DNA of 45,123 bases, taken from UHGV virus genome UHGV-1374414; one strand, given 5' to 3'. Under the pieces are notes generated by a model. That model searched no databases, was not told the DNA's origin, and saw only the letters and a list, made by a program, of their open reading frames with translations. This document shows, one piece after another, positions 1-45,123 of the stretch (its first letter is position 1; every line of letters begins with the position of its first letter). The translations under genes and the position numbers were made by a program. This DNA is from a virus.

Positions 1-2153
1 AGCACGCCGCGCTCGACCATATCGTCGATTGCCTTCGTCGATGTGCCGCCTTTCGCAAGTCCAGCCTGGCGGACAATTGCCGATTTACTGAATCCGGTAT
101 GGTCCGGGTTATCTTCCATCAGTTTTTCCAGCGCCGCATAAAGCACTTTCTCTTTTTCGTTGCGCGGTCCTGCGGCGTTCTCCTCCTTAACTGCGGCTTT
201 GCCAGCGGCCTTCGCCTGTTCGATGGCGAACGGTGCCAGGGCGACCGGTACGAGGTAAAGAGTCTCGTCGCGTGGCGTGGATGCGATCGGCTTGACGTCC
301 CAACCGGCAACGACGTCACCGAAGTCTGGCCCGGTGCTGGTGGACTGGTGTGCTTCGAACGCTTCGGACTTGCGGAGATCAACCTTAACCTTGCACTTGA
401 GCAGGACGAAGCCGCGCGGCGCTTGCTTGATGCCGTTACGTGATTTTTCGTGATACAGGTTGAGTTGACCTGGCTGGTTGTCGTCCGGCTGTTCCAGGAA
501 GAACGCAGAATCGACAGCACCATGAAGCGCGCCGGACCCGCGTGGCGTTCTGCTGCCGTTTGCACCTTTCGCCGGGTGGTGGATGACGCCCGCACTGCCA
601 CCTGTATTTTCCGCAATGGCCTTCAGCGCCTTGACCACTTCGCCCATATCGCTGGCGTTGTTCTCGTCGAACGGTTTAGCATCGGCGGACCGCAACGCTA
701 CAGTCTGGTTGAGTGAGTCGAACGCCACCAGGCCAACCGGTTCGCCGTTAGCGGTGCGGTTGATGAAGCTGATAACTTCACGCAGTCCTGATTTGCTGGT
801 GATATCCCAGCCGCGTGATTGCAGATCGATAATGTGCAGCTTGTCCAGGTCGTGCTCGTATTTAATCTGCAATGCTTCCTTACGCTGGTTGGAGGCTTCA
901 CCACCTTCCGCGTCGAAATAGAAACAATGAGACTGGACGACCTTCGCACCGCCGAACGGAATACCCGCGGCAACCGCGCCCATTTGCCCCAGCACGTAGA
1001 ACGATTTGCCGATGTTAGACTCGCCAGCCATATACCAGGTCGATTTGAAGTTAATCAGCCCTTCGATGATCGGGTCGTGCTTACTGAACAGTGCGACCGG
1101 TTCGTTATCCAGGTCAGCGTCGGTACATACGCCGTACTCGTCGCCGTCTCCGACCGCATCAACAATATGATCATATAGGGACTCGACTTCCTCGTCGTCC
1201 AGTCCGGGGAGGATGGCGGCGATTTGCTTGCGTGACATGTTGTGCGGTTCGACGTTCAGGTGGTCCGGGATCCCGATAAGACGCAGCGCCAGGTGCTGGT
1301 GTCTGTTCAGTTCCGAGCAACACTCGTTGCCGGTGTGCATACACTTGAAACGGATCTCGCCATCCTTAACCATGATAGCCGTCGACCCTTCACCACTGTG
1401 CAGGTGTTCGTTCGGGCACGGCACTTCATAACCACGACCGGACGACAGCGGTTCGAATCCTGCCTGGAAGCACCAATCCAGAATGCCGTCCGCCACGCCG
1501 TCATCGCCCTGGGTCAGTTCGCGGCGTACTTCCTCTTTTTCCACTCCCAGCTTATCAGCCAGGCGAAGCAGACGACGGACGCGGGCACGTTTGCCGTAGT
1601 GACACTTAACAACCGATTGCTGGTGAGGCAGGTACATAAGGCGGTTTGTGTCTTTTGTACAATCATCGAAGTCCACATCTGACAGGCCCAGTTGGTGTAA
1701 TAGTGCATACTGGACGCGGCCCAGGTCTTCAGCCGGTACAGGCTTGTCAGTGAGCACCAGGAAACGGGCGCAACGCGTGCCGCCCTTCAGCGGGTGGCGG
1801 TCGCCGGTGGTGGTGTGAAATACGTGTTCCAGACCCGCGTCAATGAACGCCTTACGGCAGCGGCGCAGGGTGCGGGTGTCGGTGCGGTCAATATCAAAGA
1901 ACAGGATCGAGCGGTCCACCGCACTGGTCTTACGACGCAATCCGTCACTGGTATACGCCACGATGCCATCGGCCTTACGCTTGCGGCGCGCATACTCGGC
2001 TTTATCTTCCGTCTTGTTGATATGCACCGAGGAGATTTCTTTCGCATCTTTGATAAATTCGAAAAACTCATCGGTCGTCATCTGGAAGTTTTCCGCCCTG
2101 GCTTTTTCGCCTTTTTTAGCGGGTTTTGTTACAGCGAATTTAATCAAGCTCAT
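1..2153 (-). CDS. replicative primase/helicase (primase-polymerase-like N-terminal domain + P-loop helicase); 5' portion, ORF runs off left edge
   Basis: Stop-free minus-strand frame from ATG 2153-2151 (MSLIKFAVTKPAKK...) to position 1; absent from ORF track because no stop in window. Walker A GESNIGKS near 1002-1025; DxD-like ILFFDIDRTD and Cys/His cluster in N-terminal half. Confidence 0.75.
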   Translation of the reverse strand, partial: MSLIKFAVTKPAKKGEKARAENFQMTTDEFFEFIKDAKEISSVHINKTEDKAEYARRKRKADGIVAYTSDGLRRKTSAVDRSILFFDIDRTDTRTLRRCRKAFIDAGLEHVFHTTTGDRHPLKGGTRCARFLVLTDKPVPAEDLGRVQYALLHQLGLSDVDFDDCTKDTNRLMYLPHQQSVVKCHYGKRARVRRLLRLADKLGVEKEEVRRELTQGDDGVADGILDWCFQAGFEPLSSGRGYEVPCPNEHLHSGEGSTAIMVKDGEIRFKCMHTGNECCSELNRHQHLALRLIGIPDHLNVEPHNMSRKQIAAILPGLDDEEVESLYDHIVDAVGDGDEYGVCTDADLDNEPVALFSKHDPIIEGLINFKSTWYMAGESNIGKSFYVLGQMGAVAAGIPFGGAKVVQSHCFYFDAEGGEASNQRKEALQIKYEHDLDKLHIIDLQSRGWDITSKSGLREVISFINRTANGEPVGLVAFDSLNQTVALRSADAKPFDENNASDMGEVVKALKAIAENTGGSAGVIHHPAKGANGSRTPRGSGALHGAVDSAFFLEQPDDNQPGQLNLYHEKSRNGIKQAPRGFVLLKCKVKVDLRKSEAFEAHQSTSTGPDFGDVVAGWDVKPIASTPRDETLYLVPVALAPFAIEQAKAAGKAAVKEENAAGPRNEKEKVLYAALEKLMEDNPDHTGFSKSAIVRQAGLAKGGTSTKAIDDMVERGV

Positions 2154-2163
2154 TGCCGTGGCC

Positions 2164-2493
2164 TTACTTAGAAGTTTTATTATTGCGTACCCAGGAGCGC
2201 ACTGTGCTCTGATTAATTCCGGTCAACTCGGCAATCATCGCCCATGATTTACCCTCGGCGCGCAAACGGATAACCTGCTTTTTGTATTCTTCCATTTCTT
2301 CATTGTGTTTTTGCAGCTTGCTTGCTGCGGTACCGTTGAGTAGTTCCAGCCTGGCGCGCAATTCTTTTTCGGTAAGCCGTAGTCGTTCGATTTCGAATAA
2401 CACCGCCCCCACGGCATCTGTATAAGCCCATGACCGGCTTGTCTCACTGCAAACAGTCTTCGTTAACATTTCGATTGCGTCGTTTACATTCAT
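2164..2493 (-). CDS. helix-turn-helix DNA-binding protein (possible regulator)
   Basis: 109-aa ORF; C-terminal GKSWAMIAELTGINQSTVRSWVRN is a classic HTH; N-terminal coiled-coil; SD GAGGGA upstream; directly upstream of primase gene. Confidence 0.7.
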   Translation of the reverse strand: MNVNDAIEMLTKTVCSETSRSWAYTDAVGAVLFEIERLRLTEKELRARLELLNGTAASKLQKHNEEMEEYKKQVIRLRAEGKSWAMIAELTGINQSTVRSWVRNNKTSK

Positions 2494-27679: not shown

Positions 27680-27744
27680 TATGCAGTCCCCTTTTTTTTA
27701 TGCAGTTGCCGATTGACATTGTATCAGCGAATTTCAAACAAACC

Positions 27745-27918
27745 TTATGCAGTCTCAGACGAGGGGGACCATTGACCCCCGTCTAGTCTGAAAGACTGGG
27801 GTTTGTCCCGCCTGTCCCGATCGGCTAAAAACCGCGGCAGCACTGGCTGGGGCGGGGTGCTGTCCCGCTTTGTCCCGCCCATTGTTTGTCCCGCTTTCTG
27901 TCCCGCTTACTTTATGCA
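27745..27918. repeat. composite repeat element copy 1: GC-rich hairpins followed by array of TGTCCCGC iterons, bounded by TTATGCA motifs
   Basis: Hairpin cagacgaggggg/cccccgtctag 27756-27786; six TGTCCCG(C) direct repeats (27794, 27803, 27861, 27871, 27886, 27898); about 85 percent identical to 44690-44873. Confidence 0.8.
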
Positions 27919-27929
27919 CGAAATCCGAA

Positions 27930-28062
27930 TAGGTATGCACATTTACAGGGCGGGACAAAACGGGACGTCCCGCTTGTCCCGTTTTGAGTTTATGCAGTGG
28001 AAGTGAGTAGGTATGCAGTTTTGCAGGTGCGGGACAAAACGGGACGTCCCGCTTGTCCCGCT
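27930..28062. repeat. two tandem ~80-bp units each containing a 33-bp palindromic core GCGGGACAAAACGGGACGTCCCGCTTGTCCCG
   Basis: Cores at 27949-27981 and 28028-28060 with perfect 12-bp palindrome CGGGACGTCCCG; each preceded by GTATGCA. Confidence 0.8.
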
Positions 28063-28742
28063 TCACTGTGCGGGGTTCTGCTGCGCCATCTCATCAAGCG
28101 CAATTCGTTCCATTAGCTTGATATCTTTAAACGCGCGCTGCTCGTTTTCGATACCGTGCATCTTAAATAACCACTCCAGCACGCCGTAGTCGATGCCGTA
28201 TGCGCCACCAAATCCGGTGCGCCATTGCGTTGAGCAATCTGTGAAGACTGCGACTACCTTCGCGTTGTCGGGCCATAGCGCAACAGGCGGACAAACATCT
28301 TCGGGGGCCGCGCCCCATAAACTTGCGGCTAAATCTTCGGAGGGTGGCGGCGGGCCATAAAAGCGTCGCGCCGCCTCAATTAGTTTTTTTCACGCAATCC
28401 CATCAGTTCGAGATAGTACGACGTGTGGAACACACCGAACGCGCGTGGGTAGTTGACCACCAGGCGGCGGACGTTCTCCGCGTTGAATTCGTCTGGCAGA
28501 TTCCAGCCTTCTGCGACGTGCATGATGGCCTCGACCATAACGTTAAAGCCGTCCGGGTCATTGTCGTCATATTCCGACAGCTTGCGTTCAGTGTCCTGCA
28601 TGGTCTGCGAAAATTCGTCGATCGGGCGGTGGCGTACGGTAAACGTCATTTTGCCGGGTTCGGTCTCACCAGGGCGCGGGATCTCAATCGGCAGCTTAAA
28701 GGTTGGTTTAGGGTCAAGTGTGAAGAGTGGTGCTTTAGCCAT
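28063..28742 (-). CDS. tail assembly chaperone G-T fusion made by programmed -1 ribosomal frameshift
   Basis: G frame ends at A7 run (mRNA G AAA AAA AC UAA); -1 frame then stays open about 105 codons to TGA at 28063-28065. Confidence 0.6.
28380..28742 (-). CDS. tail assembly chaperone (lambda G-like)
   Basis: ATG 28742 with GGAGA SD (ORF-track start 28757 is TTG); 120 aa; between major tail and tape measure genes. Confidence 0.7.
   Translation of the reverse strand: MAKAPLFTLDPKPTFKLPIEIPRPGETEPGKMTFTVRHRPIDEFSQTMQDTERKLSEYDDNDPDGFNVMVEAIMHVAEGWNLPDEFNAENVRRLVVNYPRAFGVFHTSYYLELMGLREKN
28383..28389 (-). other. -1 frameshift slippery heptamer A_AAA_AAC
   Basis: Seven consecutive A on minus strand (plus-strand T7 at 28384-28390) two codons before G stop. 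Confidence 0.55.
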
Positions 28743-35751: not shown

Positions 35752-37255
35752 TGTCCGCTACCTTGTCCGGGTCTTCTTCGGTAGATTCTACCGCATCAGG
35801 GGACATTTGAGGCAATGGATTCTGATTTCGCAATTCGTCTTCCACCTGCTCGACGGTTTGCGAGTCGTCGATGACGCCCTGCGCCATCATCCACTTGATG
35901 AAGTCAGCCAGTCGGACCGTGCCAGTCTGCACACCCGACATCATCGCGGTCATAAGCTGTGCATCAACCGTGATTTCGGTGTAGAACTTATTCAGCGTCA
36001 CACGCTGGTCGGCGGTGTCGCCCGTGAATAGCTGGACGATTTGCAGCGCACGGTTGAAAGCCTTCTCAACGTTACCGGCAATAAGCGACAGGATACTGTT
36101 ATCAGTCTGCGCATCATAGGCCGCCTCGGTTGCCGTCTTAGGTGCGGTCCCCTTCTCGACCAGGGCCGCGCCCAGTTTAGCCATTTGCAATTCGCGGCGC
36201 TCACACAGTGCAACAGACAAGTTGCGCTCCTCGGCCTGAATCAGTTTAGCGTCCATGTTCTGACCCAGAATGACGCCCTTAGTCGCACCGAGGGCAATGC
36301 CTCCCTTCAGGTTCTTGTCAGCCCATGATTGAGTCAAGCCCATTGCCACCAGGGTAGGTTGACCCACGATGTGCGCAATCTCGGCGACGTCCGCTTCGGC
36401 GTTGTAGTGCTTAATGTTGATGGATGCGATATCCGCCAGCGGAGCGGCGTCAGGCGTTGCGTTGTTGTCCACCGCACCACACCAGCAAAACGGAAGTTGT
36501 GTAAGCGCATTACCGGCGGCATCCACCAGCGGTACAAGGTCGGTGCGGGTAAATCCACGCGGCAAGTCCATTTGCACCTCGGACGTGTCCGCGTTGTAGT
36601 ACCAGCGGCGGGCGTGTGCCGCACCGTTAATCATGCGAAGCTCGGTCCAGATTGTTACTTCGTGGTTTGCGAAGTCGTCCGGGTCTTCGGTGCTGATTTC
36701 GTCCGTTTCCTTCAGCACAATTAGCGTATCGACACCGTGGGTCTGCCGCCAGTTGATGATCTGTTCTGCCGTGTACAGGCGGATAAGCGGGCGGTGTGAC
36801 GCCATCTCAGCGGCTGTCTGCGGCACTACGTTACCCAGTTCATCAAAATGCGCCTGGCGGTCGTAGTCGACCATAAAGCCCGCACGTCCCGATTGCAGCA
36901 CTTCAGACATAGCACCGCGCAGGAGTTGCGGCAGCGGCATACCACTGCCGTCTACGTCGTCAATCAGGTCCGCCATCGCCCCGGAAAGGTCGAGACTTAC
37001 CGGTTTAGCAAAGGCAACGCCTAACAGCGCGTTAAGTGTGCGGGCGGTGGCGTTCAGGAATACAGCGCGTTGCTTATACGCCTTATATCTCGCCCGTGCT
37101 TTCGGGTCAGTGTTGTCGCCACTGGCTGGGTGTGGAAGGTATAAGGGGCCGCACGCCTTCACGGCGCGCTCCCCTGCTACACAGTCACGGATCATTTTCC
37201 ACTCTGGCGCGATGCGCGCATAGAGCGGGTGCTGGTTGTCAACGTTAACGGTCAT
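35735..37255 (-). CDS. portal protein
   Basis: 506 aa; SD AAGGA; directly downstream of large terminase gene. Confidence 0.65.
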   Translation of the reverse strand: MTVNVDNQHPLYARIAPEWKMIRDCVAGERAVKACGPLYLPHPASGDNTDPKARARYKAYKQRAVFLNATARTLNALLGVAFAKPVSLDLSGAMADLIDDVDGSGMPLPQLLRGAMSEVLQSGRAGFMVDYDRQAHFDELGNVVPQTAAEMASHRPLIRLYTAEQIINWRQTHGVDTLIVLKETDEISTEDPDDFANHEVTIWTELRMINGAAHARRWYYNADTSEVQMDLPRGFTRTDLVPLVDAAGNALTQLPFCWCGAVDNNATPDAAPLADIASINIKHYNAEADVAEIAHIVGQPTLVAMGLTQSWADKNLKGGIALGATKGVILGQNMDAKLIQAEERNLSVALCERRELQMAKLGAALVEKGTAPKTATEAAYDAQTDNSILSLIAGNVEKAFNRALQIVQLFTGDTADQRVTLNKFYTEITVDAQLMTAMMSGVQTGTVRLADFIKWMMAQGVIDDSQTVEQVEDELRNQNPLPQMSPDAVESTEEDPDKVADNGEDN

Positions 37256-37265
37256 GGTCGTTTCC

Positions 37266-38651
37266 TTAGTAGAAGTCTACAGTTGGAACAACGGCGACAG
37301 GACGAATCACTGGGAACAGGTGCGCAATTGGATAGCCAGCGGCATCGTTCATGTGGTCCACACCGGCGGTTTTATCCGGCTCGCCTTTCTTCAGGTCGTA
37401 AACCTGCTGTTCCAGACATTTCGCTAGTGTAGGGCATTTATCCAGGTTGACAAAATACTGGCGCACGCCCTTCGAGTTGCACATCATCGTATTCATCGCG
37501 ATCAATCGGTCTTTCACAGGTGGGTTAACACTGTCATACTCCACCTCGAAGCCCGCGTCTTCCAGTTGCGCTATATCGGACGATGATGCGTTGACAGTCT
37601 TGCGAGACTTGCCGCTGCTATCCGGGTAAACGACAACACGACCGGCAGCACAATGATCGGGGTAGCGCTCCTCGATCGCCTCAATCATAGCCGGGGTATC
37701 GAACAGGTCCACGAATTCATCCACTGCGTGAATCTCGTCGCGGAACTCCTTGTTTTCGGTGATGCGCTGCCGTCTGACGTACACGACCGCCGCCATTTTC
37801 GTGACGTTAAAGTCCATACCGATAATCAGCGTGTCTTCCGGCTGCACTTCTTCGGTGCTGGCGTTATCCTCACGATTGAACATCTTGTATACCGCGCCCG
37901 ACGTAAGGTTGACAAACATACCGTTCAGGTACGCATCAATCAGGTTAGCCGGGTACTGGCTGCGCAGAGTGTCGATAAAGTCAGCCGGTAAGTGGTGATT
38001 ATCGGTAGTCTTCGCCCGGATCAAACGTTTCTGGCTATCCTTCTCCACTTCGAAAATCTGGTACATCGCCCGGAAGCCTTCAGGCGTGGATACGATGACG
38101 AACTGGCGTACCAAGCCAGCACGCAGACGACCAAGCAATTTGTGATATGCCGCCATCGCGACGTCTTGCTTCGTGGTGTCGAACTCGTCGGCAACAATCC
38201 ATGCGGCGTTAACCCCGATAAGGCGGGTGTAGTTTTCCATTGACTCGCAGATTACGCGGGTCCATTTGCCTTTCACCAGAACGCTGTAGATCTTGTCCTG
38301 CTTATTGAACTTCCACCGGAAGCCCGCCTCGTCAAACGCCTTTTCCAATTCTGGATACATGATTTTAACCAGAAGTGGAATAGTCGGTTCTGTAACGATG
38401 CCATCATGACCAGGGTTCAGGGTTAAAAGCTGGATGACCTTTCGCGCCGCGACCCATGACTTGCCACCACCGAAGCCGGAGCACAGGCCGAGGATTTTAG
38501 TCTTCGTGTCGCGCAGTAGCTCCACCTGGTGAGGAAGGCAATCAGGCTGGTAAAGGCGGACGGCCTGTGCAACGCGTGTCGGGCGCGGCGGTCTGTTTCG
38601 CTTTGCGATCGCGCGTTCAAGGGCGCGATGTTCTGCCGCATAGTTACGCAT
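37266..38651 (-). CDS. terL: terminase large subunit
   Basis: 461 aa; Walker A GFGGGKS, Walker B WIVADEFD; start overlaps small subunit stop (TAATG). Confidence 0.85.
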   Translation of the reverse strand: MRNYAAEHRALERAIAKRNRPPRPTRVAQAVRLYQPDCLPHQVELLRDTKTKILGLCSGFGGGKSWVAARKVIQLLTLNPGHDGIVTEPTIPLLVKIMYPELEKAFDEAGFRWKFNKQDKIYSVLVKGKWTRVICESMENYTRLIGVNAAWIVADEFDTTKQDVAMAAYHKLLGRLRAGLVRQFVIVSTPEGFRAMYQIFEVEKDSQKRLIRAKTTDNHHLPADFIDTLRSQYPANLIDAYLNGMFVNLTSGAVYKMFNREDNASTEEVQPEDTLIIGMDFNVTKMAAVVYVRRQRITENKEFRDEIHAVDEFVDLFDTPAMIEAIEERYPDHCAAGRVVVYPDSSGKSRKTVNASSSDIAQLEDAGFEVEYDSVNPPVKDRLIAMNTMMCNSKGVRQYFVNLDKCPTLAKCLEQQVYDLKKGEPDKTAGVDHMNDAAGYPIAHLFPVIRPVAVVPTVDFY

Positions 38652-39202
38652 TACTCACCCTGACCTTTGCCAGTAGGCTCCACAACGACGTCGCCGTTAT
38701 CATCTTCGTCGTCATCCAGCGGTACATCGTCCCGGACGCCGTGGTTGGCTTTAAGCAGGAAGGTAGCGAAGCCCGCCGCGATGGTCACGCCGCCAGCTTC
38801 CATCAGGAACGTTTTCTGCAACTCCATAGCGTCCGCCATCGCCTCGGCGAACTCCTCATGTGCGCGCGCCCAGCGGTACAGGCAGGCGACGCCTACACCA
38901 ATATCTGCGGCAAAGCGACCTAGAGTCGGCATCTTGTTGCGAGGGATTACCTGCGCAGCACCTTTGTCGGAGTAGTTGATTTGCCAGGCTACGGCATCGG
39001 CGAAATAGCGGCGAAGCTGGTCACAATACACGGTACGGTAGTCGGTAGGACGTCCACATTTGCCGCCTCTACGGCGCTTGCCGTATTCGATCTCCGGCCC
39101 GAGATTGGTGTGTTCTGTTTGCTCGCCTGGTTTACGGCGCGGGGTAACTGCTACTCGTCCGTCCAGTTTAGCGCGACGGCCTTTAACTTTAATTTCTGCC
39201 AT
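38651..39202 (-). CDS. putative terminase small subunit
   Basis: ATG 39202 with AAAGGG SD; basic N-terminus, acidic C-terminus; translationally coupled to terL. Confidence 0.5.
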   Translation of the reverse strand: MAEIKVKGRRAKLDGRVAVTPRRKPGEQTEHTNLGPEIEYGKRRRGGKCGRPTDYRTVYCDQLRRYFADAVAWQINYSDKGAAQVIPRNKMPTLGRFAADIGVGVACLYRWARAHEEFAEAMADAMELQKTFLMEAGGVTIAAGFATFLLKANHGVRDDVPLDDDEDDNGDVVVEPTGKGQGE

Positions 39203-39282
39203 GATATAAGCCCTTTTGTGCATATGCGCCGACCATCGGCAACATAGGAGACGGCCCTGCCATCTAAGGGGATTATAACAGG

Positions 39283-39531: not shown

Positions 39532-40670
39532 TTCAACATTTCCGGGCTAATGGTTAAGCGCGCTACTTCGCCGTAGTTGGCGCTGTAGGTGATTACGTTG
39601 GCACTGCGTCCGGACATCCAACCGCCGCGGCTGGCATATGCGTCTTTCGCTGCGAGGGTCCGGTGCTGTTCAACAATCATGTTGCGGGATTCAACAATCT
39701 TCTGGTGGTGCAAGTGGCCTACATGCGCGTAGCTGTACTCGCTGGCCCCGAAAGCCTGTCTGAATTTAGAAATCATAACGGTTTCGATGGCATCGAAGCG
39801 CGCTTTGTGCCCGTGGTGGAAGAACAGCGTGGTCTTGCCGTGCTGCACCATTTTGTACACGTCCGGGGACGTGTCCACATCGACACGAGGCTCGTTCTCG
39901 TACAGCGTATTGAACATTTCAGCCAGCCAAATCATACCAGACTCGTCATGATTCCCCTGGACGATTAGCAGTTTGACTTTGTGGTGTTTTTGCAGCGCCA
40001 GCTCCACCACGTTGCGCACCATGCGAATCATGTATCGTACCAGCTTCTGGTAGCGGGTATCTGCGTCCAGTACGTGACCGCTGGCAGGAGTGACGGCATC
40101 GAGGCTATCAAAGTGGGCCATATCACCGAGGATATTAATCACGGCAGTGCCTGCGTCCGGTGCGCGTGCGAAGGCTTCGACAAACCAGCGGTAGAACAGG
40201 TCTTCGGCAATCGCCATATCCCAGTCTTCGCCCGTCTCTTCGCCCCAGGCCAACATGCCCAGGTGGAAGTCGGACACGGTGTACAGGTTGAGTAGGTCAA
40301 GTGCCTGGATCGGGACTGGTGGGGCGCTTACTGGTGCTGCCGGTTTTATTTCGCTGTTCATACCCTCGACAACAGCGCGCATGGCTTCAAGCTGGCGCTC
40401 CTTGTCCTGCTCAGTGATAACCCACGACATGACTTCTTCGCCATTGCCGCGCACCAGGGCGGATACGCGCTTAACACCGAAGCCATCGGCAACGCGCTTA
40501 CGGATTACGGCATCGTTACCGTGACCAATACCTTTCTTCGACAGGCGGGCTTTGCGCATGTAGACATTTCGGAGGGAAAGACCGTACCTCTTAGCAATAT
40601 CTTTCGAGGTAGTGCCGGATTGCAACTCGGCGATCAATTGCTCGTCGGTGATTTTAGTTTGCGGGTGCAT
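39528..40670 (-). CDS. calcineurin-like metallophosphoesterase with N-terminal HTH domain
   Basis: 380 aa; N-terminal TSKDIAKRYGLSLRNVYMRKARL (HTH); phosphoesterase motifs SDFHLG, GDMAHFD, GNHDE, HHGH, GHLHH. Confidence 0.7.
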   Translation of the reverse strand: MHPQTKITDEQLIAELQSGTTSKDIAKRYGLSLRNVYMRKARLSKKGIGHGNDAVIRKRVADGFGVKRVSALVRGNGEEVMSWVITEQDKERQLEAMRAVVEGMNSEIKPAAPVSAPPVPIQALDLLNLYTVSDFHLGMLAWGEETGEDWDMAIAEDLFYRWFVEAFARAPDAGTAVINILGDMAHFDSLDAVTPASGHVLDADTRYQKLVRYMIRMVRNVVELALQKHHKVKLLIVQGNHDESGMIWLAEMFNTLYENEPRVDVDTSPDVYKMVQHGKTTLFFHHGHKARFDAIETVMISKFRQAFGASEYSYAHVGHLHHQKIVESRNMIVEQHRTLAAKDAYASRGGWMSGRSANVITYSANYGEVARLTISPEMLK

Positions 40671-43911: not shown

Positions 43912-44177
43912 TTGCTCAGTCTCCAGTGTTTGCCTACCCGCTCAATGGCGGGCTTTCGGCGTAATGTAATACGGATCCCCATTGGTTGCAAGGAAGTCCG
44001 CACCCTGAAATCGTGTTGTGCTGCGAACTGGTGCAAGTAGCGAGTCTGCGTTAACGGCTTTACGTCGTCGCGATAGCACCAGAATACCGATTCGCCCTCA
44101 ACCGCATTCTCAGCCCATATTCGTATGCAATGCAGGGGAATATGCCACGAAAGCTGTTTTGCGCGTCTGCGGCTCAT
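43908..44177 (-). CDS. hypothetical protein (possible diverged third paralog)
   Basis: 89 aa; C-terminus IERVGKHWRLSK resembles RVGRKATWRLRK of neighbour. Confidence 0.5.
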   Translation of the reverse strand: MSRRRAKQLSWHIPLHCIRIWAENAVEGESVFWCYRDDVKPLTQTRYLHQFAAQHDFRVRTSLQPMGIRITLRRKPAIERVGKHWRLSK

Positions 44178-44186
44178 TTTGGCCCC

Positions 44187-44477
44187 CTATTTCGCAAGCT
44201 GGGAGAATAGTTCGCGCTGGGCTTTAATCCGGGCGACGTTAGTCACTGCCGTTTCGCCGATACCGAAGCGATACGCCAGGCGTTCACGGGCAAATGCCAG
44301 CGCGTAAGCCCTGATAGCCGCGCGCAACGGCTCGGGGTCTTCCATGCCCGCGGTCGCATCCATGATCGCAAACCAGGTCGGAGCTACCAGGCGCTCCCAC
44401 GGTGCTCTGCCGTGGGTATATCTCACTTCGACCGGTTTTGCCACCGCCATTGTGTAATTCCAGATTAACGCTCTCAT
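44187..44477 (-). CDS. hypothetical protein (first gene of minus-strand operon after control region)
   Basis: 96 aa; SD GAGGA 9 nt upstream; leader identical to that of DnaN-like gene. Confidence 0.55.
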   Translation of the reverse strand: MRALIWNYTMAVAKPVEVRYTHGRAPWERLVAPTWFAIMDATAGMEDPEPLRAAIRAYALAFARERLAYRFGIGETAVTNVARIKAQRELFSQLAK

Positions 44478-44505
44478 TGTTCAGTCCTCATGTTGGTGTG
44501 CAACC

Positions 44506-44534
44506 AATATAGCAGGGTGCCAGGGCGGATGCAA
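44506..44534 (-). promoter_or_regulatory. sigma70-like promoter TTGCAT-17-TATATT (minus strand) from two ATATTGGTTGCA repeats
   Basis: Minus-strand -35 = plus 44529-44534, -10 = plus 44506-44511. Confidence 0.5.
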
Positions 44535-44611
44535 CCAATATTAATCACGCGCATGAAAAAGTTGATCGCTATCTGCTGTGACTGCAAACTGCGTTTTTCA
44601 CTCCGCATAAT

Positions 44612-44630
44612 GCAACCTGCATTGGTTGCC
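44612..44630. promoter_or_regulatory. inverted repeat GCAACC-tgcatt-GGTTGC (motif-derived operator-like site)
   Basis: Perfect 6-bp arms; overlaps ATTGGTTGCC at 44621-44630. Confidence 0.35.
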
Positions 44631-44689
44631 TAGTTCACCGGCGACCGCACTTCGCATCATGCTGCCGTGTATTTTGCAATCCCCGGATT

Positions 44690-44873
44690 TTATTCAGTCT
44701 CAGACGAGGGGGGCCACTGACCCCCGTCTAGTCTGAAAGACTGGGGTGCTGTCCCGCTGTCCCGCTCCTCTGGAAGCCGCGCCATCCGGGGCGGGACTGG
44801 GGTGCTGTCCCGCTTTGTCCCGCCCCTTGTTTGTCCCGCTTTTTGTCCCGCTTACTTTATGCAATAAAACTGC
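44690..44873. repeat. composite repeat element copy 2 (hairpins + TGTCCCGC iteron array), near primase gene 3' end
   Basis: About 85 percent identical to 27745-27918 in same orientation; five to six TGTCCCGC iterons; AT-rich tract follows. Confidence 0.8.
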
Positions 44874-44900
44874 ATAACTATTCACTATATCTACACTACA

Positions 44901-45002
44901 CGGCAACCAATGCGACCAGCTAAAAACACTCAATCCGGCAACCAATGCTCGCACAAATTAATCGTTTAGCGATATGGGGATTCCCATATCGGCAACCAAT
45001 GC
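44901..45002. repeat. three direct repeats of CGGCAACCAATGC plus a 20-bp palindrome
   Basis: Repeats at 44901-44913, 44936-44948, 44990-45002; palindrome GATATGGGGATTCCCATATC at 44971-44990. Confidence 0.7.
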
Positions 45003-45014
45003 GCGCAGAATTTA

Positions 45015-45123
45015 ATCTTTTAAATCATCATCGGTCGCCGAAAGCGTGATGGGTATATTCGTTTTAATGACGATATTCGACGACCCATAGATGGCCCCGG
45101 TATGCGGATCGGTATAAAAACCG
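45015..45123 (-). CDS. 3' end of the same primase/helicase gene if the sequence is circular (stop TAA at 45012-45014)
   Basis: Minus-strand frame open from right edge to TAA. The 2 leftover nt at positions 2-1 plus 1 nt at 45123 make an in-frame CTC codon, giving ...DMVERGV-L-GFYTDPHTGAIYGSSNIVIK...DDDLKD*. Confidence 0.55.

What the first reader, a model, noticed from the sequence alone, without database searches (positions are those of the whole stretch)
45015..45123. Window is probably a complete circular genome; primase/helicase ORF is split across the ends
The minus-strand primase frame starting at 2153 has no stop before position 1 and leaves 2 unpaired nt there. The minus-strand frame entering from the right edge leaves exactly 1 nt (45123) and then runs 36 codons stop-free to TAA at 45012-45014. 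Joined, they form an in-frame CTC codon and a 753-aa protein. So coordinate 1 is an arbitrary linearisation point, and the right-end control region lies just downstream of the replication gene.
Basis: seen in the sequence. Interest (0 to 1): 0.5.

Follow-up and report, generated by a model that had tools for sequence, protein, structure and literature searches.

The report
Circular phage map cut inside replication gene
The window is one complete genome of an ordinary Dhillonvirus-type E. coli phage whose sequence file happens to start in the middle of its helicase-primase gene, so the "split gene" comes from where the circle was cut and is not a biological feature.

Summary
The minus-strand ORF 2153..1 continues in frame at 45123 through a CTC (Leu718) codon to TAA at 45012-45014. 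The product is 754 aa, not 753.

The join is real:
- A synthetic 1,400-nt junction aligns as one unbroken piece in 154 Dhillonvirus records.
- Sodalis phage SO-1, deposited as a circular record, is colinear base-to-base across the cut, and SO-1's own cut is continuous in the window.
- The joined protein matches homologues end to end down to 43% identity.

The window is exactly one genome length and has no terminal overlap. Published work on close relatives shows that these phages assemble as circles because virion DNA is linear, terminally redundant and packaged by the headful mechanism. "Circular" therefore describes the map and the replicating form, not the packaged DNA.

The gene encodes an AEP-fold primase, a Cys/His module, a RepA/DnaB-type helicase, a winged-helix-like C-terminal domain (where the cut falls) and an acidic tail.

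The adjacent "control region" is SO-1's annotated repeat region B. Across distant relatives it keeps an origin-like layout: a conserved 15-nt box, lineage-specific 7-mer repeats and a hairpin. That is the only mildly novel lead.

The finding itself is ordinary and already known.

The parts
1..2153 (-). Helicase-primase gene, 5' part: ATG at 2153-2151, codons 1-717, plus the first two bases of codon 718
   Evidence: Pfam AAA_25 covers residues 357-531. phrog_3228 matches end to end. The N-terminal 318 aa has an AEP fold.
45012..45123 (-). Helicase-primase gene, 3' part: third base of codon 718 (45123), codons 719-754, and stop TAA at 45014-45012
   Evidence: The last 37 aa are identical in SO-1 and in P0001. 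The C-terminal 87 aa is found in 188 phage records.
2164..2493 (-). 109-aa helix-turn-helix protein gene, directly upstream of the helicase-primase gene on the same strand and 10 nt from it
   Evidence: Pfam HTH_23, HTH_28 and Sigma70_r4_2. The HK578 counterparts gp45-gp46 are described as one operon of replication-initiation genes (bioRxiv 10.64898/2026.07.10.737580).
44478..45011 (.). Non-coding repeat region between the helicase-primase stop and the next minus-strand gene; equivalent to 'region B' of SO-1
   Evidence: SO-1 repeat_region annotation at 40178-40657, aligned to window 44474-45123. Repeats are listed.
44901..45002 (-). Three copies of GCATTGGTTGCCG (44990-45002, 44936-44948, 44901-44913); this is the genome-wide ATTGGTTGC motif
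44871..44885 (-). 15-nt box GTGAATAGTTATGCA, inside an AT-rich stretch (44852-44900, 26.5% GC against 54.7% for the genome)
   Evidence: The box is conserved with 0-1 mismatch after the helicase-primase stop in lineages whose protein is only 37-45% identical.
44751..44851 (.). Seven GTCCCGC repeats (six direct, one inverted); read on the minus strand they are GCGGGACA
   Evidence: The most-repeated 7-mer differs between lineages. In 500 shuffles of the SO-1 region the maximum count was 2-4, against 7 observed.
44695..44743 (.). G/C-rich hairpin with an outer stem
   Evidence: Folded as ssDNA: dG -13.4 kcal/mol, z = -3.4. Other lineages have hairpins of similar form but different sequence.
44499..44541 (-). 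Two TGCAACCAATAT motifs; on the minus strand they read TTGCAT-N17-TATATT, 20-50 nt upstream of the gene that starts at 44477
   Evidence: The strict sigma-70 scan did not call it.
44187..44477 (-). First gene downstream of the repeat region (96 aa, no family assigned)
27680..28064 (.). Second copy of the hairpin-plus-repeat element ('region A' of SO-1), lying between the tail chaperone and tape-measure genes
   Evidence: Ten GTCCCGC copies. Window 27745-27918 matches SO-1 region B at 84%, and the two window copies are aligned. Box variants lie at 27927 and 28005.
37266..39223 (-). Large (37266-38651) and small (38651-39223) terminase subunit genes; many related records are conventionally started at the small-subunit gene
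   Evidence: Pfam Terminase_6N and Terminase_6C; weak P22 gp3 / Sf6 small-terminase hits. The SO-1 record junction maps to 39277|39278.

Best explanation
The window is one full unit length of a Dhillonvirus (HK578 / SO-1 group) coliphage genome. It was assembled as a circle and written out from an arbitrary point that falls in codon 718 of the replicative helicase-primase gene.

Nothing biological happens at coordinate 1. Joining end to start restores a 754-aa protein with five parts:
- an AEP-fold primase (about residues 1-205);
- a Cys/His module (246-287);
- a RepA/DnaB-type SF4 helicase (about 357-600);
- a winged-helix-like domain (about 666-737);
- a conserved acidic DDL tail.

The assembly closes because virions of this genus carry linear, terminally redundant, circularly permuted DNA made by headful packaging. 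After injection that DNA can circularise. This last step is taken from the literature on relatives and is inferred for this phage.
For: Shown here:
- The in-frame join is present in the sequence.
- The junction probe aligns as a single piece, 93-95% identical, in 154 of 159 matching records.
- An exact 36-nt junction-spanning string lies internally in two IMG/VR contigs.
- Colinearity with the circular SO-1 record is reciprocal across both cut points.
- All 40 IMG/VR loci carry the gene as one uninterrupted match inside a contig.
- Homologues 747-781 aa long cover 97-100% of the joined protein, down to 43% identity.
- E676, G687 and D751 are invariant, and L752 nearly so, in 36 homologues.
- There is no terminal overlap and no shared 14-mer between the ends.

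From the literature:
- Five SO-1-like phages 'circularized during de novo assembly', suggesting terminally redundant virion DNA, and PhageTerm predicted headful packaging for Opt-212 (PMC9022532).
- UDS3lw: headful packaging with a pac site (PMC13348001).
- TerL is of the Terminase_6N/6C type.
Against: - No reads are available, so the physical ends of this particular phage are not observed.
- The exact joined protein is not in the 15-billion-protein collection, and no record is more than about 95% identical. Continuity therefore rests on relatives, not on a second copy of this same genome.
- The winged-helix call for the C-terminal domain rests only on the secondary-structure order of a model with pLDDT about 70-82. 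No fold search of that domain alone was possible.
Confidence: 0.94

Rival explanations
1. The window ends are the real physical ends of the virion DNA (cohesive ends or short direct terminal repeats) that happen to lie inside the helicase-primase gene.
For: None found. The one oddity is that phage bob's record carries a 77-bp tandem duplication at window-equivalent positions 38-114, so two assemblies were broken within about 100 nt of each other.
Against: - There is no terminal repeat or overlap.
- The cut lies inside a conserved domain of an essential gene.
- 154 relatives read straight through it.
- Relatives are reported as headful packagers.
- The bob duplication is exactly 77 bp, the size of an untrimmed SPAdes k-mer overlap, and it frameshifts bob's gene. 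It looks like an assembly artefact.
Confidence: 0.02
2. The window is not a complete genome. It is a fragment, or more than one unit length, cut from a longer contig, a concatemer or a prophage, and the end-to-end match is incidental.
For: The origin and topology of the source contig are not given.
Against: - Every part of SO-1 maps once and in order. The only gaps are internal mosaic modules at 15.7-19.0, 40.7-41.4, 43.6-43.9 and 44.3-44.5 kb.
- There is no loss or gain at the junction, to the base.
- The length is typical of the genus.
- Nothing is duplicated between the ends.
- No bacterial flanks are present: the window matches Dhillonvirus records throughout apart from those internal mosaic gaps.
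Confidence: 0.03
3. The repeat region next to the cut (44478-45011) is only a transcriptional control region, with promoters for the next operon and operator sites for a phage regulator. It has no role in replication.
For: - ATTGGTTGC motifs lie in promoter-like positions and orientations upstream of several genes across the genome, including the gene at 44477.
- The region also precedes an operon in the other lineages.
- The second copy (region A) sits just upstream of the tape-measure gene.
Against: - The layout has several origin-like parts: 5-7 short repeats whose sequence changes with the lineage of the adjacent initiator-like gene, an AT-rich stretch (26.5% GC), a box conserved across genera, and a conserved hairpin form. 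This is more typical of iteron origins.
- The protein's two enzymatic domains best match RepB' and RepA of the iteron plasmid RSF1010.
- The two roles are not mutually exclusive.
Confidence: 0.35

Closest known systems
Dhillonvirus genomes (Sodalis phage SO-1 NC_013600, Escherichia phage HK578 and about 160 records)
   Same: - Whole-genome colinearity.
- 92-95% nucleotide identity over about 93% of the length.
- The same helicase-primase (754 aa in SO-1).
- The same repeat regions A and B, already annotated in SO-1.
   Different: - No record is identical.
- The tail-fibre region and a few small early-gene modules are replaced (gaps).
- The record is cut at a different point and written in the opposite orientation to SO-1.
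Headful-packaging (pac) phages such as P22, Sf6 and SPP1, which have terminally redundant, circularly permuted genomes
   Same: - The assembly closes into a circle.
- TerL is of the Terminase_6N/6C type, and TerS shows weak P22 gp3 / Sf6-like hits.
- Relatives are called headful by PhageTerm.
   Different: The physical ends, the pac site and the extent of redundancy are not observed for this phage. The TerS hits are below Pfam's cut-off.
T7 gp4 bifunctional primase-helicase
   Same: - An acidic C-terminal tail (established knowledge for gp4).
   Different: - The primase here has an AEP/Prim-Pol fold, not a zinc ribbon plus TOPRIM.
- There is an extra winged-helix-like domain after the helicase.
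IncQ plasmid RSF1010 replication system (RepB' primase, RepA helicase, RepC iteron binder, oriV with iterons and ssi hairpins)
   Same: - The neighbouring DNA has short direct repeats, an AT-rich stretch and a hairpin.
   Different: - All functions are fused in one phage protein.
- No similarity to RepC was tested or found.
- No biochemical evidence exists that the repeats or the hairpin act in initiation.
- The description of oriV comes from general knowledge and was not tested here.
Satellite phage P4 alpha protein with ori and crr
   Same: The logic is the same: primase, helicase and a C-terminal winged-helix origin binder in one protein, acting on two separated clusters of short repeats (general knowledge). 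Dhillonviruses likewise have two clusters, regions A and B.
   Different: - P4 alpha uses a TOPRIM-type primase and an SF3 helicase (general knowledge).
- The second cluster is absent in the Cornellvirus relative, so a two-site requirement is not general in this family.

Membership tests
Genus Dhillonvirus | High nucleotide identity and colinearity over most of the genome with accepted members | tested here: met
   92-95% identity over about 93% of 25 kb against about 160 records. The window is colinear with SO-1.
Circularly permuted, terminally redundant (headful) phage genome | A unit-length sequence whose ends abut without gain or loss | tested here: met
   The junction is continuous to the base in SO-1, and the reverse also holds. 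The junction probe aligns as a single piece in 154 records. There is no terminal overlap.
Circularly permuted, terminally redundant (headful) phage genome | No fixed virion ends; read starts spread downstream of a pac site; DNA longer than unit length | not testable with these tools
   This needs raw reads or virion DNA. It is reported for the relatives Opt-212 and UDS3lw.
Circularly permuted, terminally redundant (headful) phage genome | Terminase of a headful-type lineage | tested here: inconclusive
   TerL matches Terminase_6N and Terminase_6C, families that are not exclusive to headful packagers. The TerS hits to P22 gp3 and Sf6 are below the curated cut-off.
phrog_3228 replicative helicase-primase | Full-length match to the family profile | tested here: met
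   1142.9 bits, residues 1-752 of 754 against profile positions 3-765 of 766.
SF4 (DnaB / RepA-type) replicative helicase | RecA-like core with Walker A and B motifs, and fold similarity to hexameric replicative helicases | tested here: met
   [not shown]
AEP (archaeo-eukaryotic primase / Prim-Pol) superfamily | AEP catalytic fold with the acidic DxD motif | tested here: met
   [not shown]
T7 gp4-type (zinc ribbon + TOPRIM) primase-helicase | DnaG-like TOPRIM primase domain | tested here: not met
   [not shown]
Iteron-type replication origin | A cluster of three or more short direct repeats next to an AT-rich stretch, beside the initiator gene | tested here: met
   Seven GTCCCGC copies in 101 nt. 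The 49-nt stretch next to them is 26.5% GC. The cluster lies directly 3' of the helicase-primase gene. The same layout, with different repeat sequences, occurs in at least six lineages.
Iteron-type replication origin | The initiator binds the repeats and replication starts there | not testable with these tools
   This needs EMSA or footprinting, plus origin mapping. GC skew follows gene orientation and is uninformative.

The most novel reading that the evidence does not exclude
The non-coding region immediately 3' of the helicase-primase gene, next to the window's cut, is the replication origin of this whole phage family (Dhillonvirus, Cornellvirus and uncultured relatives).

On this reading:
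- lineage-specific 7-mer iterons are read by the variable C-terminal winged helix of the helicase-primase itself, which is the very domain the cut bisects;
- a 15-nt box, GTGAATAGTTATGCA, is conserved across genera;
- an ssi-like hairpin is primed by the AEP domain.

The result would be an RSF1010-like three-protein initiation system fused into one polypeptide. Dhillonviruses would carry a duplicated second site inside the tail gene cluster.
Probability: 0.35. Interest if true: 0.45.

Novelty: already known. Interest (0 to 1): 0.13.

Why it matters
For annotation, the window should be treated as circular. Conventionally the record would be re-started at the small terminase gene.

Phage bob shows what goes wrong when a circular overlap is left untrimmed. 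A 77-bp duplication frameshifts the same gene in a RefSeq record.

Biologically the finding adds nothing new to what is known of Dhillonviruses.

The side observation could matter modestly. This is a very commonly isolated group of coliphages in which no origin has been described, at least in the papers searched. A candidate origin with a built-in, lineage-specific initiator domain would make its replication directly testable.

Tried and rejected
- The strict sigma-70 promoter and intrinsic-terminator scan of 44100-45123 found nothing. The promoter-like reading of the ATTGGTTGC motif therefore rests on position and orientation only.
- Pfam and PDB sequence searches of the N-terminal (1-318), middle and C-terminal (660-754) segments gave no meaningful hit. 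The BurrH and homeobox hits were judged spurious.
P0001 (98% identical) was used instead.
- The exact joined protein is not in the 15-billion-protein collection.
- GC skew tracks gene orientation and cannot locate an origin.
- I considered reading the conserved box as a DnaA box and rejected it. It matches only 7-8 of 9 positions, and several lineages have A in place of G in the CAC core (sequences).
- A second repeat cluster was sought in Cornellvirus FSL SP-031 and not found. The P4-like two-site idea is therefore not general.
- The apparent co-variation between recognition helix and repeat sequence is confounded with phylogeny. Two lineages keep the domain but have no repeats at this position (L029, L032).
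- Full-text searches for the box sequence, and for origin or iteron work on these genera, found nothing.

Full report
**1. The observation**

On the minus strand an ATG at 2153-2151 opens a frame that reaches position 1 without a stop, giving 717 codons plus two bases. At the other end, base 45123 is followed by 36 sense codons and TAA at 45014-45012.

Joining the ends creates a CTC codon (Leu718) and an ORF of 754 aa plus stop.

The window has no Ns and no terminal overlap, and the first and last 3 kb share no 14-mer.

Chance alone would produce an in-frame, stop-free join about 13% of the time. The sequence pattern by itself is therefore weak evidence, and homology has to decide.

**2. Is the join real?**

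The window is a Dhillonvirus-type coliphage of the HK578 / SO-1 group. About 160 records match at 90-95% identity, and none is identical.

- A synthetic probe made of the last 700 and first 700 bases aligns as a single piece, 93-95% identical, in 154 of 159 matching records.
- An exact 36-nt string spanning the cut lies internally in two IMG/VR contigs.
- Against Sodalis phage SO-1, deposited as a circular 45,169-bp record, window 45123|1 corresponds to SO-1 40066|40065 with no base gained or lost. SO-1's own record junction corresponds to window 39277|39278.
- The only parts of the window not matched by SO-1 are internal mosaic modules, namely the tail-fibre region and a few small genes.
- In 19 relatives the point equivalent to the window's cut lies anywhere from 5% to 97% of the record length. 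This is what arbitrary linearisation of a circular map looks like.

**3. The protein**

Length and conservation:
- The joined protein is the same length as SO-1 gp48, with identical last 37 residues.
- It aligns without gaps to a 754-aa protein that stands for 517 sequences.
- It matches phrog_3228 "replicative helicase-primase" from end to end.
- Homologues of 747-781 aa cover 97-100% of it, down to 43% identity.
- All 40 IMG/VR loci carry the gene uninterrupted inside a contig.
- The C-terminal 87 residues are found in 188 phage records, including Salmonella phages at 28% identity.
- D751 is invariant and L752 nearly invariant in 36 homologues.

Domains:
- Between the two lies an invariant Cys/His module (246-287).
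- After the helicase the model shows three helices and a beta-hairpin (666-737), which is winged-helix-like, and then a disordered acidic tail. The cut, at Leu718, falls at the junction between the third helix and the wing. The winged-helix assignment is an inference from secondary-structure order only.

**4. What "circular" means**

Published work on close relatives states that five SO-1-like phages "circularized during de novo assembly", suggesting terminally redundant virion chromosomes. PhageTerm predicted headful packaging for Opt-212 (PMC9022532). UDS3lw is reported as a headful packager with a pac site (PMC13348001).

The large terminase here matches Terminase_6N and Terminase_6C, and the small subunit resembles P22 gp3 and Sf6 weakly.

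The best reading is therefore a circular map of a linear, permuted, terminally redundant virion DNA. For this particular phage that is inferred, because no reads are available.

**5. The neighbouring "control region"**

Region 44478-45011 lies directly 3' of the stop codon and 5' of the next minus-strand gene (44477). It corresponds to the repeat "region B" already annotated in SO-1. SO-1 also annotates a related "region A", which in the window is 27680-28064, between the tail chaperone and tape-measure genes.

Read along the minus strand, region B contains, in order:
- three GCATTGGTTGCCG motifs;
- an AT-rich stretch (26.5% GC) holding the box GTGAATAGTTATGCA;
- seven GCGGGAC repeats;
- a stable hairpin (z = -3.4);
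- two more ATTGGTTGCA motifs that form TTGCAT-N17-TATATT just before the next gene.

**6. Comparative result, noticed in passing**

I examined the 700 nt after the helicase-primase stop in the 40 loci.

- The 15-nt box survives with 0-1 mismatch in Dhillonviruses, a Cornellvirus and several uncultured lineages whose protein is only 37-45% identical.
- The 7-mer repeated 5-7 times next to it differs by lineage: GCGGGAC, ACTCGCA, GGGGAGA, TCCGACA, AGGGATA, CGGACAA and GGGATGA. In shuffles of the SO-1 region the maximum count never exceeded 4, against 7 observed.
- Each lineage also has a G/C-rich hairpin of similar form but different sequence.

This is the layout of an iteron-type origin beside its initiator gene. 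Both enzymatic domains also best match the RSF1010 replication proteins.

Caveats:
- Two lineages lack the repeats at this position.
- The Cornellvirus has only one cluster, so region A is a Dhillonvirus-specific duplicate.
- The match between recognition-helix variation and repeat sequence is confounded with phylogeny.
- A purely transcriptional role is not excluded.
- No paper in the searchable library describes this. A 2026 preprint treats HK578 gp45-gp46 as replication-initiation genes.

**7. Verdict**

What was found is an arbitrary cut in the circular map of a typical member of a well-sampled phage genus, splitting a known gene. It is ordinary, and its use is practical: rotate the record before annotating it. 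The only lead with some novelty is the origin-like architecture beside the cut.

Noticed in passing
window 44478-45011; loci L006, L008-L047 (700 nt after the helicase-primase stop): An origin-like layout is conserved across genera. The 15-nt box GTGAATAGTTATGCA survives with 0-1 mismatch even where the protein is only 37-45% identical. It is flanked by 5-7 copies of a 7-mer that differs by lineage (GCGGGAC, ACTCGCA, GGGGAGA, TCCGACA, AGGGATA, CGGACAA, GGGATGA), followed by a G/C-rich hairpin of conserved form.
   Followed up: partly
window 27680-28064 and 44690-44885: A hairpin-plus-repeat element of about 200 bp occurs twice in direct orientation, with about 84-90% identity between region A and region B copies in cross-genome comparisons. 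The second copy sits unusually between the tail assembly chaperone and tape-measure genes. SO-1 annotates both as regions A and B. The Cornellvirus relative has only the copy next to the helicase-primase gene.
   Followed up: partly
window 2682, 9866, 12808, 12825, 14481, 17534, 22998, 33638, 33651, 43981, 44500, 44531, 44621, 44903, 44938, 44992: The motif ATTGGTTGC occurs 16 times against 0.6 expected. Many copies lie just upstream of gene starts and point the same way as the gene, including in front of opposite-strand 'moron' genes and of the HTH and helicase-primase operon. The motif often supplies a TTGCAT -35-like hexamer 17 nt before TATATT. It is conserved at syntenic sites in SO-1 and bob. 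It may be a promoter element or an operator for a phage regulator.
   Followed up: partly
L002 (Escherichia phage bob, NC_073072.1) 36442-36595; equivalent to window 38-114: An exact 77-bp tandem duplication inside bob's helicase-primase gene frameshifts the annotated C-terminus (762 aa, with an unrelated tail). Its size matches an untrimmed SPAdes k=77 circular overlap, so it is probably an assembly artefact in a RefSeq record. It lies only 37 nt from where this window is cut.
   Followed up: partly
window 2164-2493 (-): A 109-aa protein encoded just upstream of the helicase-primase gene is variously annotated in relatives as 'transposase', 'Gam' or 'resolvase'. It matches only HTH families (HTH_23, HTH_28, Sigma70_r4_2), so those names look wrong. 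It is a candidate binder of one of the repeated motifs.
   Followed up: no
joined protein residues 748-754 (window 45015-45035): An acidic C-terminal tail with an invariant D-L pair (DDDLKD here; D/E-D-L-x-D/N/S in most, ending at E in two lineages) is conserved across all lineages examined. It is reminiscent of the polymerase-binding acidic tails of T7 gp4 and of SSB proteins.
   Followed up: no
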